Assembly (NCBI RefSeq): GCF_021378375.1
Contig: NZ_CP076228.1
Location: forward strand, 1,230,001-1,262,000
DNA length: 32,000 nt
Source: Wolbachia endosymbiont of Drosophila innubila
GTDB lineage: Bacteria; Pseudomonadota; Alphaproteobacteria; Rickettsiales; Anaplasmataceae
Direction of reading: 5' to 3'
Shown here: positions 4,481 to 27,900 of the stretch, one piece after another
How positions within the stretch are numbered: the stretch's first letter is position 1
How the letters are laid out: each line of letters begins with the position of its first letter
Position numbers and translations under genes: made by a program
The notes under the pieces: model-generated
What the model saw: only the letters and a program-made list of their open reading frames with translations
Databases searched by the model: none
Told to the model about the DNA's origin: nothing

Positions 4481-6028
4481 TTACATCTCAGGTGTAACAT
4501 TTAGTATAGGCGCTATTCTATTTATAATGTTCTTTACTATAGGCGCAGCAATTATTCCCCCGGTATGGTGCATCCCTTGAGGCTCATCAATAGCAATTAG
4601 CACTATGTACCTTGGGTCAAGCATAGTTAGCACTCCTATAAATGATGCTATGTTTGCATCTTTGCTATATTTACCATCTACAACTTTTTCCGCCGATCCA
4701 GTTTTTCCTCCTATTGAATATGCCTTTATTTTTGCTTTTCTGCCAGTGCCATCTGTTACTGCTGCACGTAATAATTTTCTCATTTCCCTGGAAGTTCTTC
4801 TTGAGATAATTTGCTCTCCTATACTTCTTTTATTCAATATCAAGGTTGCGTTATGAAATATCCCATTGTTGATTAATGCTGCTGCAGTTTGTGCAAGATG
4901 TATAGGAGTTACAGCTATGCCATAACCATAAGATGCTGTTATTAAAGTGGTTTCACTCCATTTATCCGGGATTATCGGTGTGGATTTTTCTGGTATTTCT
5001 ATTTTCAAAGGAGAAAATAGCTTCATAGCTTTAAAGTATTCTACCTGTTTTTCAATACCTAGTTTGACTGCAATTTTTGCTGCACCAATGTTGGATGATT
5101 TTACAAATATATCTTGCACAGTAATTTTTGGAATTTTAGATTTATGAAAATCCTGAATTTTATACTTTCCGATGGTGATTGGTGTTGATACGTCATATAA
5201 ATCGCTAGTTTTTGTAGCGTTCGCATCAAGCGCTGCGGCTATTGTAAAGTATTTTAATACCGACCCCATCTCATATACCCCAAGACTGGCGCGATTAAAC
5301 TTTTGTACGTCTTCTGCCTTATTCTGTAAGTTGGGATTAAAATCAGGTAGGCTGACCATCGAGATAACTTCACTATTTCTCACATTTAAAACAATTCCTA
5401 CTCCGCCAAGTGCCTGATATCTGCTTACAGCTTTAGTTAGCTCTTCATGCACTATGCTTTGCACTCGTGTATCTAAGGATAGTATTATGGGCTTTTCTTG
5501 CTCATTGTTTTTACTTATATACGCCTCAACTCCTGCAATACCATTGCCATCTATGTCAGTGTAACCAAGCACGTGTGAAAATAAATTACTGTGAGGATAT
5601 ATACGCTTTATGTCGTCATCAAAATTTACTCCTGGTACACCAGCGTTTTTGATCGCTAGTAATTCTTTTGGAGTCAAGTGCCGCTTTATCCAAGCAAATT
5701 TCTTTTCTGAAGTAAGTACTCTATATAAGTTCTTGTATTCGAGGTCATGCAAAGTAGAACACAGTTGTGCTGCTATACTTTCCGGATTCTTTACTTTGGT
5801 TGCATCTATATATAGTGATGTTGTGGGCACATTTGTTGCTATTACCACTCCATTTCTATCTAAAATATCAGGTTGTTTATGTACTATATTATCTTTTCTA
5901 AAATTTTCTGAAGTAGTAAGTTGATCAAATGTTAAAGAGAATATGCGAAAAATAATTATTATATAAAATATAAATAATGGTACTATAAAACACAGTGAGC
6001 GGAGCTTATTTTTAAGTAATGCTTGCAT
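4481..6028 (-). CDS. ftsI: peptidoglycan D,D-transpeptidase FtsI (PBP3-class penicillin-binding protein)
   Basis: N-terminal TM anchor. Carries SxxK (GSVLKY), SSN (VKSSNIG) and KTG (GGKTGSAEK). Collinear with E. coli FtsI blocks ([43 protein letters not shown]; [20 protein letters not shown]). The first ATG is at 6028; the ORF track uses a TTG at 6046. Confidence 0.8.
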
Positions 6029-6048
6029 ATTTACTTGATTTGACAAAA

Positions 6049-6978
6049 ATGGAAATCATCTTAGCTGAACCACGAGGTTTTTGTGCCGGGGTAAAAAGAG
6101 CTGTGGACATATTAGCTATTACTTTAGAAAAATACAAAAACGAGCGCCAAGTTTATGTGCTACACGAAATTGTTCACAATAAATATATAGTAGAGGACTT
6201 TAAGAAACAAGGAGTGGTTTTTGTAAGCAGTATCGAGGAAATTGAAGATAATGAAGGAATACTGATCTTCAGCGCGCACGGAGTATCAAAAAATATAGAA
6301 GATGAGGCAAAAAGAAAGGGTATTCAAGTGATTGATGCAACATGTCCTTTAGTCAACAAAGTGCATAAAGAAGCAAAAAGGTATGAAAACAGTGGTAAAG
6401 AATTAATTCTCATTGGGCATGAAAACCATCCAGAAGTTAAGGGAATTAGGGGAAGAGTAAACAATCCTGTCACTTTAGTGCAAACTTTGCAGGATGTATA
6501 TGATTTAAAGGTTAAAGATCCAGATAATTTGTCTTATGTTACACAAACTACGTTAAGCATCGACGATACCCGTGACATTATTGCTGCCTTGAAATTAAGG
6601 TTTCCAGGCATAACAGGTCCAGATTTAAAGGACATATGCTATGCAACGCAAAACAGACAAAATGCTGTTAAAAAGCTAGCTGAAATTGTAGACATGGTAT
6701 TAGTTGTAGGAAGTAAAAATAGCTCAAATTCAAACCGCTTATTAGATCTGTGCACTGCCAGAGGAAAAAGAGCCTACTTGATTGATAATTACAGCTGTGT
6801 GAATAAAAGCTGGTTTCAGGGCGTAGAAAAGATAGGAATCACCGCAGGTGCTTCCGCTCCTGACATATTAGTTGATGAATTAATAGACTACCTAAAAGTA
6901 AACCTGAGTGTAAAAATTTCAGTTATGCCAGGTGGTATTACTGAAAATGTTCAGTTTAAAATACCGAATCTGGTTTAA
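6049..6978 (+). CDS. ispH: 4-hydroxy-3-methylbut-2-enyl diphosphate reductase
   Basis: [19 protein letters not shown] matches the IspH N-terminus. All three Fe-S cysteines are present ([20 protein letters not shown]), as are HNKYIV, SAHGVS and [13 protein letters not shown]. The start at 6049 is by homology; the ATG at 6019 would add 10 non-homologous residues. Confidence 0.95.
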
Positions 6979-7116
6979 AACACAACTTATCTACTAAACT
7001 TCTCTTGAAATCACACAAACCAGCATCTATAGCTAAGACGTCATACCGCGATTCATTAGACTTCTTGCATAACCATATAACAAACTTTTATTGGGAATAG
7101 AAACGAAAAAACTTGC

Positions 7117-7145
7117 TTGACAAACTCCGCTAGCCCCCTTATCAT
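7117..7145 (+). promoter_or_regulatory. near-consensus sigma70-type promoter inside repeat copy 1
   Basis: TTGACA (7117-7122), a 17-nt spacer, then TATCAT (7140-7145). An A-rich tract (aaacgaaaaaa) lies just upstream. No gene lies downstream. Confidence 0.5.
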
Positions 7146-7378
7146 GAAACTGAAGCTATTGTATTTGCTTTCGCCAATCTGCAGATTAAAAGGTAAGGAT
7201 TACTTAATGTATCGGCGTCTTATGTTCAATTTTTTGCAGTATATAGATACTGTATGTCTTTACAAAACTTCATCTACATCTAGATTTTTATCTAAATAAG
7301 CTGAACGCGCTTATAAAGCGTTACAAGACATCAAAAAATGCCAATACTCGACAGAGATAGTAAAAGACTAGCTAACTC

Positions 7379-7400
7379 GGGGATTCTTTGTCTTTTTTTC
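7379..7400 (+). terminator. weak hairpin plus T-run at the end of tandem unit a, copy 1
   Basis: ggggattctttgtc followed by tttttttc. The stem is short and includes wobble pairs; the call rests mainly on the T-run and on recurrence in all units. Confidence 0.25.
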
Positions 7401-7522
7401 TGCTTAGTAAATTTCTTAAACATTTGCAGCGTAGGTTAGTTGCAATTAAAAGCGGCTGAATCTCGCTTGTCAAGCGTTTAAAACATAAAAAACGCCAATA
7501 TTTTAAAGCGGATAATAACCAC

Positions 7523-7546
7523 GGGGCTTCTTTTGCCTTTTTTTTC
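7523..7546 (+). terminator. weak hairpin plus T-run at the end of tandem unit b, copy 1
   Basis: ggggcttcttttgcc followed by ttttttttc. GGGGC can pair with GCCUU (two G-U pairs) around a 7-nt loop, followed by a U8 run. Confidence 0.3.
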
Positions 7547-7584
7547 ATTTGGTAAATTTCTTAATATTTATGGCTAAACGACAA

Positions 7585-7860
7585 CCGTCATCCCGCTGCT
7601 TGTTAGCGGCTGAGATACCGCGAATGAATCGCGGTATGACGGTTCGCAGAGGCATGACGATAAGGTTTATACCTTGTCATCCCAGTGCCCAAACGCTGGG
7701 ATCCAGTTTTCTTTACAAATTCACCAAAAGTGTTTCATTCTATAACATAAAACCCATACTCACCAAATCCAATGCATTACTTGCAATTAAGTTTCCTGGA
7801 TCCCAGTGTCTGGGCACTGGGATAACAAAGGAGGACGTTATTCCAGTGCCAAGCACTGAC
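7585..7860. repeat. nest of short palindromic elements at the centre of the ispH-htpG palindrome
   Basis: 7586-7642 (cgtcatcccgctgcttgttagcgg ctgaga taccgcgaatgaatcgcggta tgacg) has outer and inner stems. 7676-7706 (gtcatcccagtgcccaaacgctgggatccag) is mirrored by its reverse complement at 7796-7827. The same families recur at 14485, 21327, 24593 and 26489. Confidence 0.85.
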
Positions 7861-7914
7861 CATTTCTGGTCTCTTAAATTGCAACTAATCTAAGTATTAA
7901 AAAATTTACCAAAC

Positions 7915-7937
7915 GAAAAAAAAGGCAAAAAAAGCCC
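7915..7937 (-). terminator. weak hairpin plus T-run at the end of unit b, copy 2
   Basis: The reverse complement reads gggctttttttgcc followed by ttttttttc. Confidence 0.25.
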
Positions 7938-8070
7938 GATGGTTGGCTAGTTACTTACATTATACTTTCAAGTATGGCGTTTTTTTATTCTAAACGCTTA
8001 ATAACCGTGACTCAGCCGCTTTTAAGCCGCAACTAATCTAAATTATAAACGTTAAGAAATTTACTAAACA

Positions 8071-8091
8071 GAAAAAAAGGCAAAGAAACCC
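8071..8091 (-). terminator. weak hairpin plus T-run at the end of unit a, copy 2
   Basis: The reverse complement reads gggtttctttgcc followed by tttttttc. Confidence 0.25.
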
Positions 8092-8302
8092 TAGGGTAGC
8101 TAATTATTCACTATCCATTTTTTAAGTTGGCGTTTTTTGATGTTTTAAATAGCGTATTTCAGCTTGTGTAGCTAGAAATTTGATAAAGACATGAGGTGCA
8201 CATAGTGCAAAAAATTAAGCATGATTTACGCCAAATACATTAAGTTTTTTTGTCATTAATCCACTGCAGAGATTGCGAAGATAAATAAATAGCTTCAGTT
8301 TC

Positions 8303-8331
8303 ATGATAAGGGGGCTGGCGAAGGGTGTCAA
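8303..8331 (-). promoter_or_regulatory. near-consensus sigma70-type promoter inside repeat copy 2
   Basis: On the minus strand: TTGACA (8331-8326), a 17-nt spacer, then TATCAT (8308-8303). It points leftward, away from htpG. Confidence 0.5.
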
Positions 8332-24944: not shown

Positions 24945-27900
24945 ATGCCGAAACGCACAGATATAGAATCTATATTAGTAATAGGAGCAGGCCCAATAGT
25001 TATAGGTCAGGCATGCGAGTTTGATTATTCCGGAACGCAAAGCTGTAAAGTATTAAAAAGCGAAGGTTATAAAGTCATTTTGGTTAACTCCAACCCCGCA
25101 ACTATAATGACAGATCCTGAGTTTTCTGATGCGACGTATATTGAGCCGGTACTGCCTGAAATCATAGAGAAAATTATAATTAAGGAGAGGCCAGACGCAA
25201 TATTGCCAACAATGGGCGGGCAAACAGCGCTCAATTGTGCAATAAAACTTGCAGATGATGAAGTGTTAGACAAATACAACGTAGAATTAATAGGGGTAAA
25301 TAGAGGAGCAATAAAAAAAGCAGAGGATAGAGAGTTATTCCGTCAGTCCATGGATAGAATAGGACTGAAATACCCCAAAAGTATCATTATAAAAAATCAA
25401 GAACAAATAAAAAAGGCTTTGGATTACGTTGGATTACCAGCAATCATTCGTTCATCATTCACTCTTGGTGGTGCAGGTAGTGGCATAGCATATAATAAAG
25501 AGGAGTTTTTCAATATCGCAGAAAGTGCTCTCAAAATTTCGCCAATAAATGAAGTTCAGATAGATGAATCAATTATCGGCTGGAAAGAGTATGAAATGGA
25601 AGTTATCCGCGATTGTAAAGATAACTGCATAATAATCTGTTCGATAGAAAATGTTGATCCGATGGGAGTGCACACCGGAGATAGTATTACGGTTGCTCCT
25701 GCTTTGACTCTGCGTGACGTAGAATACCAACAGATGAGAAATGCATCTATAGCAGTGCTGAGAGAAATTGATGTTAGTGCCGGTGGTGCAAATGTTCAAT
25801 TTGCAGTGAATCCTAAAGAAGATGGAAGCCTCGTTGTGATTGAGATGAATCCAAGGGTTTCTCGCTCTTCTGCACTTGCTTCGAAAGCAACAGGCTATCC
25901 TATTGCAAAAGTTGTAACTAAACTTGCTATTGGCTATTCGCTCGACGAAATACGTAACGACTGTGCTCCAATAATACCAGCAGCATTCGAACCAGTGATT
26001 GATTATATCGTCACTAAAATTCCTCGATTTGAGTTTGAGAAATTTAAGGGGACGAATTGTGAATTATCAACCTCCATGAAATCAGTGGGAGAAGTGATGT
26101 CTATAGGCCGCACTTTTAATGAGTCACTACAGAAAGCTTTCCGTTCACTTGAAACTGATTTTACAGGACTTGATGAAGTATTTCCTGAGAACATTGATAT
26201 TGATCACATAAAATCTCAATTAGCAAAATTGCTACCAAACAGATTACTGATTGCTGCTGACGCAATGCGCCACGGAATTAGCATAGAAGAAATAAATTCG
26301 ATTACAGGATATGACTTATGGTTTCTGCAAAATATACAGCAAATTATATTAACTGAACAAAAAATCAAGGAAAATGGATTTCCTGGAACTGCGTACGAAA
26401 TGTTAGAGCTGAAAAAAATGGGATTTTCAGATGCAAGATTAGCAAAGTTAAGTAATAGACCTACCTCTGTCATTCCAGTACCCTCTAATGTCATCCCAGT
26501 GCGTGACACTGGGATCCAGCCAGCGTTACACGCTGGAGATCGAGTAAAACAAATCGAAGAAATAAGAAAAAAATTTGGCATTAAACAAGTTTATAAACGC
26601 GTAGACACCTGTGCAGCTGAATTTGAATCGAGCACTGCTTATATGTATGGCTGCTATGAGGGTGATGTTGAAAATAAAACGGAATGTGAGGCGAATATTT
26701 CTGACCGAGAAAAGGTTGTCATTTTAGGAAGTGGTCCAAATCGCATTGGTCAAGGTATTGAGTTTGATTATGCATGCGTACATGCAGCTTCTGCCGCCAA
26801 AGAAATGGGGTATGAAACAATAATGATCAACTGTAATCCCGAAACTGTCTCAACTGACTACGATACCGCTGATCGTTTATATTTTGCACCACTCATTGCA
26901 GAGGATGTGCTTGAAATACTAAGTAAAGAGCAAGAAAATGGCACACTGGTTGGTGTAATAGTTCAAATAGGCGGTCAAACACCTTTAAAGTTAGCCAAAG
27001 TGCTTAACGAGAGAGGTTTCAAAATTCTGGGAACTTCGTTTGATTCTATTGACCTTGCAGAAGATCGCATGAGGTTTAAAAGCCTTGCTTTGCAACTTAA
27101 TTTAAAACAACCTGAAAATTCTATCTGCCATTCAGTAGAAGAAGCGTTAACCAACGCAGAAAAGGTGGGGTTTCCACTAGTAGTCAGGCCATCATATGTC
27201 CTCGGCGGTCAGTCTATGTCGATTAGACACGATACTCAGAGCTTTAAAGAGTACGTCTTAGATCAAACTAAAATCTTTGAGCATGGTTCGCTGCTTCTTG
27301 ATAAATTTTTAGTCAATGCAGTTGAGGTTGACGTTGATGCTGTATGTGATGGGGAAAAAGTTTTCATTGCAGCGGTCATGGAGCATATTGAAGAGGCTGG
27401 TATCCACTCTGGTGATTCAACATGCTCAATACCGACAAATACATTGAGTGACGAAGTAATAAAAGAGATCGAGCTCCAAACTGAGAGAATAGCATTAGCA
27501 TTAAAAGTGAAAGGTCTGATAAACATTCAGTTTGCTGTTCAAGAGAATAGACCTCTTGCAGAACCTGTTTGTGATGAGAAATCTTTAGGAAAAGTGCAGA
27601 TGAGCACCACAGAATACTCGAATGTATTTGAGGAGCGCAGACAAGCTTTGACGACAAAATTGCCTTCAGAAATCGAGTTATGCAAGAGGTCTAGTGATGT
27701 ATACATACTTGAAGTGAATTTAAGGGCTAGTCGAACCGTTCCTTTTATTTCCAAGGTAATCAATATTCCTATTGCAAAGCTTGCCACTCAGGTTATTTTG
27801 GGTAAAAAATTGAATCAGGAAAACAAGCCTTTCAATCATTTTGCAGTTAAAGCTGCTGTTTTTCCATTTACCCGCTTTGCAGGAGTTGATACTTTACTTG

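What the first reader, a model, noticed from the sequence alone, without database searches (positions are those of the whole stretch)
7117..7145. A near-consensus TTGACA-17-TATCAT promoter is the best-conserved part of all three repeat copies yet faces no gene
At 7117-7145 (+), 8331-8303 (-) and 20883-20911 (+) both hexamers, the 17-nt spacing and the unusually GC-rich spacer end (GC.AGCCCCCT) are identical. The rest of the repeat has diverged noticeably. An A-tract resembling an UP element sits upstream (aaacgaaaaaactt / aaacgaaaaactt / aaaactt). The roughly 190 nt downstream has no ORF conserved between copies: a 28-codon ORF in copy 1, 13 codons in copy 2, and no ATG in copy 3. That is the signature expected of a multi-copy non-coding RNA gene or an outward-firing mobile promoter, not of random AT-rich DNA.
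Basis: partly seen in the sequence, partly recalled or inferred. Interest (0 to 1): 0.7.

Follow-up and report, generated by a model that had tools for sequence, protein, structure and literature searches.

The report
Active promoter heading a Wolbachia repeat
The three look-alike promoters are real, working start signals at the head of a roughly 450-base repeat scattered through Wolbachia genomes; published start-site maps show they fire exactly where predicted and make RNAs that code for no protein, but nobody had recognised them as one family.

Summary
TTGACA-17-TATCAT occurs at 7117-7145(+), 8331-8303(-) and 20883-20911(+), where 0 matches are expected by chance.

The window is a wMel-group Wolbachia. 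Each promoter heads a modular dispersed repeat:
- an A-tract plus the promoter
- a leader of about 190 nt
- two periods of about 141 nt
- palindromic modules

A close paralog of copy 3 starts at the equivalent of 20918. Cappable-seq lists start sites at the same relative position in at least five more wMel paralogs.

In 42 copies found through a body motif rather than the promoter, the hexamers mismatch the consensus at 2.2% of positions. The spacer and discriminator mismatch at 28%. The spacing is fixed at 17. An intact promoter also sits downstream of ispH in a Wolbachia whose IspH is only 88% identical.

No ORF is shared by all subfamilies, and orientation relative to neighbouring genes is random. 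Half of the elements run into a WsnRNA46-type palindrome, against 2.8% of random positions. In this window copies 1 and 2 converge on one such palindrome.

What the RNA does is unknown, and covariation support for a fold is weak. The start sites are already in published supplements; recognising the family is new. Interest is moderate.

The parts
7095..7116 (+). Copy 1: 5' flank of the repeat with A-tract (gaatagaaacgaaaaaacttgc), resembling a proximal UP element
   Evidence: Sequence. The family consensus AAAAAACTAC at -45..-36 is 92% conserved in copies found through a body motif.
7117..7145 (+). Copy 1 sigma-70-type promoter, TTGACA-17-TATCAT
   Evidence: A mapped transcript 5' end lies 7 nt downstream.
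7152..7577 (+). Copy 1 transcribed body. It holds a 5' hairpin (GAAG..CTTTC), a leader, and two periods of about 145 nt that each end in GCCTTTTTTT..GTAAATTTCTTAA. The start is at G7152.
   Evidence: The RACE insert of wMel IGR-1047 aligns to 7152-7444 at 296/297 positions. The RT primer sits at 7447-7465, so the RNA is at least 314 nt long and passes the first T-run at 7393-7399.
7580..7664 (.). Palindromic module (CCGTCATCCCGC...GCGGTATGACGG) that follows copies 1 and 3
   Evidence: (D3, I12, I13).
7675..7827 (.). WsnRNA46-like long palindrome on which copies 1 and 2 converge
   Evidence: Rfam RF02625 scores 56.1 bits on the - strand and 42.8 on the + strand, with a gathering score of 65.3 and E = 6e-11. 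Such palindromes are enriched behind elements.
7891..8296 (-). Copy 2 body, with a predicted start at G8296
   Evidence: Aligned with copies 1 and 3. The wMel IGR-1049 primers match 8187-8239 in the sense of this RNA. That explains why the published RACE, aimed at the + strand, found nothing.
8303..8331 (-). Copy 2 promoter, TTGACA-17-TATCAT
   Evidence: It is invariant in orthologous loci L026-L032.
20883..20911 (+). Copy 3 promoter. The recF stop codon (TGA, 20884-20886) lies inside the -35 hexamer.
   Evidence: The ancestral RecF ends six residues earlier in strains without the element.
20918..21318 (+). Copy 3 body, with a predicted start at G20918
   Evidence: The paralog IGR-1021 (179/186 identical) has a RACE 5' end at the equivalent base.
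21320..21405 (.). Palindromic module after copy 3
   Evidence: D3; I1.

Best explanation
Each site is an active housekeeping (sigma-70-type) promoter. It forms the 5' module of a modular, dispersed Wolbachia repeat and drives a non-coding transcript through that repeat.

Mechanism, step by step:
1. RNA polymerase holoenzyme recognises TTGACA and TATCAT at the optimal 17-nt spacing. The conserved upstream A-tract probably helps. (Recognition is inferred from the consensus match and from conservation.)
2. Transcription starts at the G seven bases after the -10 hexamer. (Shown for copy 1, for a close paralog of copy 3, and for five more wMel paralogs.)
3. The RNA begins with a conserved 5' hairpin (GAAG..CUUC). 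It then crosses a leader of about 190 nt and two periods of about 141 nt. Their T-runs are not efficient terminators. (Shown for the first T-run: the RACE product spans it.)
4. The transcript continues into the palindromic modules that follow the repeat. (Shown by RT-PCR for one wMel paralog; inferred for the others.) In half of the copies these include a WsnRNA46-type hairpin.

In the ispH-htpG spacer, two copies fire towards each other across one such hairpin. Both of its strands should therefore be transcribed (inferred).

The promoter is maintained by selection, helped by gene conversion among copies. The hexamers and spacing stay fixed while the spacer between them drifts.

The RNA is most likely a structured non-coding RNA or a precursor of hairpin-derived small RNAs. 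At some copies it additionally reads into neighbouring genes, in sense or antisense.
For: Promoter and start site:
- Three 11/12 matches, where chance predicts none.
- The RACE 5' end falls at window 7152, and a copy-3 paralog starts at the equivalent of 20918.
- Cappable-seq start sites exist at the same relative base at wMel 131,390, 388,537 (201 cpm), 713,865, 1,067,756 and on the hemC side.

Family:
- At least 21 copies in one complete genome and copies in two other assemblies.
- 53 metagenome loci.
- Primers for 8 of the 13 'highly transcribed intergenic regions' of Woolfit et al. lie in family sequence. The primers that failed in RACE for IGR-151, -446 and -1049 have the same sense as the element RNA.

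Selection on the promoter:
- Hexamers mismatch at 11/504 positions; spacer plus discriminator mismatch at 272/966. Fisher p is about 1e-41, though copies are not independent.
- Four spacer haplotypes occur with invariant hexamers among near-identical strains.
- An intact promoter sits at the orthologous ispH-downstream site in a lineage with 88% IspH identity.
- In wAlbB a copy with decayed hexamers starts about 15 nt downstream from a new TATACT.

Non-coding, and not tied to a gene:
- No ORF is shared by all subfamilies, and almost none has a Shine-Dalgarno match.
- The downstream ORF is co-directional in 17 cases and convergent in 13.
- Co-directional neighbours are unrelated genes.

Cargo:
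- 16 of 32 elements have a WsnRNA46-like palindrome starting 300-700 nt after the start site, against 2.8% of random positions.
- The reverse primer of the positive IGR-1021 RT-PCR matches such a palindrome with 2 mismatches.
Against: - Copies 2 and 3 of this window have no start site of their own on record. None of the three window copies appears in the high-confidence Cappable-seq list. That study discarded multi-mapping reads.
- Expression is modest at 34-201 cpm, against 895 for the htpG promoter.
- RNA-structure support is weak. Only 1 of 38 predicted pairs shows a compensatory change. Long-range pairing is no better between cognate than non-cognate partners. MFE z-scores are only -2.1 and -3.2.
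- The WsnRNA46 match in the window is below Rfam's gathering score.
- In 12 of 16 cases the palindrome's better-scoring strand is opposite to the element.
- The 3' ends of the transcripts are unknown.
- The hexamer-versus-spacer contrast partly reflects a few subfamily founders, not 42 independent lineages.
Confidence: 0.8

Rival explanations
1. Portable gene promoter. The repeat's role would be to supply transcription to whatever protein gene lies downstream, as described for promoter-bearing small repeats in other bacteria.
For: - In wMel the IGR-1021 transcript was co-amplified with the annotated downstream CDS.
- 17 of 30 copies have a co-directional ORF 330-1000 nt downstream, including prmC, bamB and an ABC ATPase.
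- The internal T-runs do not stop transcription.
Against: - Orientation is statistically random: 17 co-directional against 13 convergent.
- All three window copies face away from, or converge on, their neighbours.
- htpG uses its own promoter with its own start site at 8476.
- The 'downstream CDS' primer of IGR-1021 lies in a palindromic repeat, not in a convincing gene.
- The promoter sits at least 400 nt from any downstream gene, with conserved repeat sequence in between.
Confidence: 0.25
2. Selfish or decaying repeat with an incidental promoter. The element would have spread by DNA-level duplication or recombination, the promoter would be a relic of its source, and transcription would have no function.
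For: - Copy number varies strongly between strains. One metagenome Wolbachia carries copies where the window has none: after the ortholog of the 16447-17622 gene, on both sides of carB, and upstream of brkB.
- Truncated solo fragments exist.
- Mosaics produced by gene conversion are seen.
- RNA covariation is weak.
- Expression is modest.
Against: - Within the same 29 nt the hexamers are about 13 times less variable than the spacer, and the spacing never changes in 42 copies. Neutral decay does not predict this.
- The promoter survives at an orthologous site across lineages while the flanking spacer DNA has become unalignable.
- The wAlbB copy that lost its hexamers is still transcribed, from a shifted start behind a TATACT.
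Confidence: 0.2
3. Small-protein or type I toxin-like gene. The transcript would encode a peptide of 13-30 residues (MFNFLHYVHLMSL or MCTxCLYKTSRFLPI).
For: - Both short ORFs recur in many subfamilies and lie in the best-conserved leader block.
- Multi-copy repeats of about 500 bp with strong promoters are typical of type I toxin-antitoxin loci in enterobacteria (general knowledge).
Against: - Neither ORF is present in all subfamilies. Copy 3 lacks the first and copy 1 lacks the second.
- The two ORFs overlap in different frames.
- No ORF has a Shine-Dalgarno match except one in the copy-1 type.
- The variable positions are non-synonymous.
- The peptides are not hydrophobic in the way membrane toxins are.
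Confidence: 0.05
4. Chance promoter-like matches in AT-rich DNA.
For: Nine-of-twelve matches are as common as in shuffled sequence in these regions.
Against: - Three 11/12 matches with identical spacing, where none is expected.
- Experimentally mapped start sites.
- Conservation across the family.
Confidence: 0.01

Closest known systems
'Highly transcribed intergenic regions' of wMel (IG-1047 ispH/WD1275, IG-1049 WD1276/htpG, IG-1021 and others; Woolfit et al. 2015, PMC4349823) and orphan start sites of wMelPop-CLA (Cappable-seq, PMC12558409)
   Same: These are the same loci or their paralogs. The published 5' end at 1,216,539 is window 7152. Primers for 8 of the 13 regions lie in this repeat. 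Five listed start sites carry the same promoter.
   Different: Both papers treat each site on its own, as a candidate sRNA, an orphan start site or an intragenic start site. Neither describes a shared promoter or a repeat family. IG-1047 was dropped because specific primers could not be designed.
WsnRNA-46 (Rfam RF02625, Wolbachia sRNA 46; Mayoral et al. 2014)
   Same: A long palindrome of this family lies between copies 1 and 2 and directly behind half of the elements elsewhere. [quoted passage not shown]
   Different: The promoter-bearing repeat itself has no Rfam match. The window's palindrome scores 56.1 bits, below the gathering score of 65.3. Whether the mature small RNA is cut from these transcripts was not tested. 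The Mayoral paper was not held in the library.
Promoter-bearing small dispersed repeats such as Neisseria Correia elements, and modular repeats such as pneumococcal BOX elements (general knowledge)
   Same: An intergenic, multi-copy, non-coding repeat that carries a functional promoter. It has a modular build with a variable number of internal units and a patchy distribution between strains.
   Different: There is no sequence relation. This element is longer, at about 450 bp. Its promoter points into the element rather than being created at an end. It has no clear terminal inverted repeats or target duplications.
VNTR-141 and VNTR-105 typing loci of wMel (Riegler et al. 2012, PMC3287509)
   Same: The VNTR-141 reverse primer matches family sequence exactly at +256. 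The VNTR-105 reverse primer matches with one mismatch at +347. The element's internal periods are 133-155 nt long and include a short hairpin, like the described 141-bp period.
   Different: The VNTR loci are tandem expansions used as size markers. No promoter or transcript was described for them. The identity of the periods was inferred from primers and the published description, not from the VNTR sequences.
wMel repeat families of Wu et al. 2004 (PMC368164), including four unnamed families with hallmarks of mobile elements
   Same: A dispersed repeat longer than 200 bp in wMel, present in many copies. It was very likely counted among those 19 families.
   Different: The table contents are not available in the held text, so the assignment could not be made. 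That paper does not mention promoters.

Membership tests
Bacterial sigma-70-type promoter | -35 and -10 hexamers close to TTGACA/TATAAT, with 16-18 nt spacing | tested here: met
   TTGACA-17-TATCAT, 11/12, at all three sites.
Bacterial sigma-70-type promoter | Transcription starts 5-9 nt downstream of the -10 hexamer | tested here: met
   The published RACE insert re-aligned here starts at G7152, 7 nt after TATCAT. Cappable-seq start sites fall at the same offset in five paralogs. Copies 2 and 3 themselves have no direct data.
Bacterial sigma-70-type promoter | Hexamers conserved relative to flanking and spacer sequence in homologs | tested here: met
   2.2% against 28% mismatch in 42 copies found through a body motif. 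The promoter is intact at the orthologous site in contig L052.
Bacterial sigma-70-type promoter | Activity depends on the hexamers (mutational test) | not testable with these tools
   Needs reporter fusions.
WsnRNA46 (Rfam RF02625) | Covariance-model score at or above the gathering score of 65.3 bits | tested here: not met
   Window 7675-7827 scores 56.1 bits (-) and 42.8 bits (+). The threshold is met in related loci directly behind elements: L022 at 73.3 and L002 at 67.1. The promoter repeat itself has no match.
Structured non-coding RNA gene | Conserved secondary structure supported by compensatory changes | tested here: inconclusive
   1 of 38 predicted pairs is compensatory. The 5' hairpin GAAG..CUUC is kept, with one compensatory variant AGAG..CUUU. 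Cognate and non-cognate long-range duplexes are equal.
Structured non-coding RNA gene | Defined 3' end or terminator | tested here: inconclusive
   The first internal T-run is read through. In most of the 16 cases examined the first arm of the palindrome is followed by only TTTT.
MITE-like transposable element | Terminal inverted repeats and target-site duplications | tested here: inconclusive
   Only a low-complexity 11-nt candidate was found: AAACGAAAAAA at 7101-7111 and TTTTTTCATTT at 7540-7550. No target duplication was identified. The 5' boundary comes in two variants.
MITE-like transposable element | Presence/absence polymorphism at orthologous sites | tested here: met
   Absent after recF in wCin (L090). 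Absent upstream of htpG in a supergroup E strain (L035). Present at sites in a metagenome Wolbachia where the window has none.
Retro-copied element (RNA intermediate) | The repeat unit begins at the transcription start | tested here: not met
   The repeat includes the promoter and 10-50 nt upstream of it. An RNA copy could not carry these.
Type I toxin-antitoxin repeat | Conserved small hydrophobic ORF in every copy | tested here: not met
   No ORF is shared by all subfamilies.
IS110 bridge-RNA or other transposon guide RNA | Homology to the non-coding end of a transposase gene, or a match to a curated RNA family | tested here: not met
   No similarity to sequences flanking the IS110 transposases in L030 and L034. 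No Rfam match.

The most novel reading that the evidence does not exclude
The repeat would be a selected, genome-wide transcription system, not selfish DNA. Its conserved promoter would be the dedicated driver that makes the precursors of WsnRNA-46-class hairpin small RNAs, which are reported to act on both Wolbachia and host genes. Convergent pairs such as copies 1 and 2 would generate double-stranded RNA across the palindrome. Copy number and promoter haplotype would then tune small-RNA output between strains.
Probability: 0.15. Interest if true: 0.75.

Novelty: new member of a known kind. Interest (0 to 1): 0.5.

Why it matters
Wolbachia has few transcription factors, cannot be genetically manipulated, and is released in the field for mosquito-borne disease control. 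How it makes regulatory RNAs is poorly understood.

This family would tie together several scattered published observations in one promoter-led modular repeat:
- most of the 'highly transcribed intergenic regions' of wMel
- several orphan and intragenic start sites
- the two VNTR typing loci
- the palindromes annotated as WsnRNA46

It would also give WsnRNA46-type hairpins a candidate promoter. It would explain why strand-blind RACE failed at several loci. It warns that pipelines which discard multi-mapping reads undercount this transcription.

The promoter also supplies the stop codon of recF at one copy. At other copies it can send antisense transcripts towards neighbouring genes.

Tried and rejected
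- **Curated RNA families and tRNAs.** Rfam at gathering threshold found nothing in the whole window, and there are no tRNAs or tmRNA.
- **Other collections.** The element has no match in plasmids or viral contigs. The single 'phage' hit is chromosomal flank of wRi carrying a solo promoter fragment.
- **Consensus fold.** RNAalifold on 20 copies gave almost no covariation.
- **Long-range pairing.** The stem between the A-rich 5' segment and the first T-block in the copy-3 MFE fold is generic. Cognate duplexes average -22.9 kcal/mol and non-cognate -22.2.
- **Retro-element idea.** Rejected because the repeat includes its own upstream promoter.
- **IS110 bridge-RNA or guide-RNA idea.** Rejected for lack of any homology or RNA-family match.
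- **Type I toxin idea.** Rejected for lack of a conserved ORF.
- **Leader of one particular gene.** Rejected because downstream genes are unrelated.
- **Empty site versus L021.** The syntenic locus did not help because synteny breaks at window 28425.
- **Supplementary read counts.** IG-1047 and IG-1049 could not be found in the stored, truncated Woolfit spreadsheet.
- **Mayoral et al. 2014.** Not held in the library.
- **Palindrome as terminator.** Left open; most first arms are followed by only four T.

Full report
**Observation**

The promoter scan finds TTGACA-17-TATCAT, 11 of 12 consensus positions, at 7117-7145(+), 8331-8303(-) and 20883-20911(+). The composite pattern, with up to three mismatches allowed, hits only these three places. 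No shuffle of the window gives any hit.

The three sites head copies of a much longer repeat: 7107-7664(+), 8341-7870(-) and 20862-21405(+). Copies 1 and 2 face each other in the spacer between ispH (6019-6978) and htpG (8502-10397). Copy 3 begins at the very end of recF.

- The promoter is one of three equally conserved blocks, not the single best one.
- Copy 3 does contain ATG codons.
- The GC-rich spacer is conserved only among these close copies.

**Identity of the sequence**

An exact-pattern scan of one genome per species hits about 20 sites in the Wolbachia endosymbiont of Psylliodes chrysocephala. It also hits several contigs of two other Wolbachia-type assemblies.

The window's HtpG is identical to that of many wMel-group genomes. 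The window differs from wMel-like strains in the ispH-htpG spacer by a 16-bp indel and a few substitutions. Primers published for wMel match the window exactly.

**Anatomy of the repeat**

Aligning 25 full copies gives a consensus that is well conserved from about 10 nt upstream of the -35 hexamer to ...GGTAAATTTCTTAATATTTAT about 400 nt past the start site. Many copies share a further 15-50 nt upstream, (TAGC..)AGAAACGAAAAAAC. The A-tract is therefore part of the repeat.

Downstream of the start site come, in order:
- a conserved 5' hairpin, GAAG..CUUC
- a leader of about 190 nt with subfamily-specific segments
- two tandem periods of 133-155 nt, each ending in GCC-T7-8-..GTAAATTTCTTAA
- palindromic modules

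At least three subfamilies exist, and the three window copies represent three of them.

**The promoter fires**

Woolfit et al. 2015 chose 13 highly transcribed intergenic regions of wMel for 5' RACE. For ispH/WD1275 they report a 5' end at 1,216,539. Their cloned insert aligns to window 7152-7444 at 296 of 297 positions. It begins, right after the adaptor, at G7152, seven bases after TATCAT.

The RT primer lies at 7447-7465. The RNA is therefore at least 314 nt long and crosses the first T-run.

For WD1243/WD1244, a 96%-identical paralog of copy 3, the insert begins at the base equivalent to 20918.

Primers for 8 of the 13 regions lie in this family. In three of those regions (IGR-151, -446 and -1049, the last being copy 2) the primers have the same sense as the element RNA. 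That explains why RACE, which the authors aimed only at plus-strand RNA, failed there.

The 2025 Cappable-seq study lists start sites with the same promoter and the same offset at wMel 131,390, 388,537, 713,865, 1,067,756 and next to hemC. These run at 34-201 cpm, and some respond to temperature shifts. The window's own three copies are not in that list. That study removed multi-mapping reads. Neither paper describes a family.

**Conservation**

The first scan selected on the promoter, so I also searched metagenome contigs with a 22-nt body motif about 75 nt inside the transcript.
- Of 47 unique copies with upstream sequence, 39 keep TTGACA, a 17-nt spacer and TAT(C/T)AT.
- Among the 42 alignable copies, the hexamers mismatch the consensus at 11 of 504 positions. 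The spacer and discriminator mismatch at 272 of 966.
- The A-tract is 92% conserved.
- Copies share ancestry, so the p-value overstates independence. Even so, the contrast within 29 nt is large.

Near-identical wMel-group strains carry four spacer and discriminator haplotypes at copy 1 while the hexamers stay invariant. Some haplotypes match other paralogs, which points to short-tract gene conversion.

One metagenome Wolbachia has IspH 88% identical to the window's. It carries an element with an intact promoter in the same orientation about 115 nt after ispH. The sequence between ispH and that promoter is no longer recognisably similar to the window's, by visual comparison of the two sequences.

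A wAlbB copy has decayed hexamers (TTCAAC, TACCAT). It starts transcription about 15 nt further down, behind a TATACT.

**What it drives**

No ORF is common to all subfamilies. Two overlapping ORFs of 13-15 codons recur, almost always without a ribosome-binding match.

Orientation relative to neighbours is random. The next ORF is co-directional in 17 cases and convergent in 13. The upstream ORF is co-directional in 46 and divergent in 36. Co-directional neighbours are unrelated genes.

The sequence between copies 1 and 2 contains a long palindrome. It matches Rfam's WsnRNA46 below the gathering score: 56.1 bits against 65.3, E = 6e-11. In related loci the same family reaches the gathering score directly behind elements, twice on the same strand.

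A profile built from these hits finds such a palindrome starting 300-700 nt after the start site in 16 of 32 elements. The figure for random positions is 2.8%.

The 'downstream CDS' primer of the positive RT-PCR at the copy-3 paralog matches such a palindrome with 2 mismatches. The palindromes therefore behave as a frequent 3' module of the transcription unit.

**RNA structure and mobility**

Evidence for a conserved fold is weak. The way the element spreads is also unclear.
- There is presence/absence polymorphism.
- Truncated solo promoters exist, one of them antisense to rnhB in wRi.
- Only a low-complexity candidate terminal inverted repeat was found.
- An RNA intermediate is excluded, because the repeat carries its own upstream promoter.

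**Verdict**

What is new is the recognition that these scattered orphan transcripts, the VNTR flanks and many WsnRNA46-type palindromes belong to one promoter-led modular repeat with a selectively maintained promoter.

The function of the RNA remains open. The finding is a new member of a known kind: promoter-bearing dispersed repeats, or multi-copy non-coding transcription units. It is of moderate interest.

Noticed in passing
window 19789-20886 (stop codon at 20884-20886): RecF ends on the TGA inside the -35 hexamer of copy 3. Strains without the element end six residues earlier (...FKFFELSSK*). The wMel-type protein reads ...ELSNELNAKLP*, so the repeat or its flank supplies the C-terminal codons and the stop.
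   Followed up: yes
window 21554-21898, 22117-22470, 22488-22814 (- strand): Three tandem paralogs of the TrbC/VirB2 type IV secretion pilin (Pfam PF04956). They are convergent with copy 3, so read-through from copy 3 would be antisense to the first of them.
   Followed up: partly
window 8441-8469 and 8476: A weak consensus match, TTGAAA-17-TAAATT (9/12), is the real htpG promoter. The published Cappable-seq primary start site of htpG (wMel 1,217,879) corresponds to window 8476.
   Followed up: yes
window 7123-7151, compared with L026-L032: Near-identical wMel-group strains carry four different spacer and discriminator haplotypes at copy 1 while the hexamers stay the same. Some haplotypes equal those of other paralogs, which suggests short-tract gene conversion.
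   Followed up: partly
window ~7619; L026 1166-3001: The window lacks 16 bp present in other wMel-like strains inside the palindromic module. One strain (L026) has an extra insert of about 300 bp inside the WsnRNA46-like palindrome.
   Followed up: no
window 7549-7893 (+): A 114-codon TTG-initiated ORF lies in palindromic repeat sequence and has no Pfam match. It is probably the counterpart of the hypothetical genes WD1275/WD1276 and is likely spurious.
   Followed up: partly
window 14485-14517, 24586-24699, 26482-26523: Further copies of the Wolbachia palindromic repeats lie away from any promoter-bearing element. The one at 24586-24699 resembles WsnRNA46 (57 bits with the profile built here).
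   Followed up: no
L036, L042, L052, L060 (metagenome Ga0209755): A Wolbachia with proteins 81-92% identical to the window's carries the element at many more sites, often at both ends of short contigs. This suggests a large expansion of the family in that strain.
   Followed up: partly
L089 1491-1585 (wRi, record MN180249): A solo fragment consisting of the promoter plus the first ~55 nt of the leader abuts the 3' end of rnhB in antisense orientation. It matches the wMel start site at 1,067,756.
   Followed up: partly
window 10436-13201 (+): A 921-residue protein downstream of htpG has no Pfam family above threshold.
   Followed up: no
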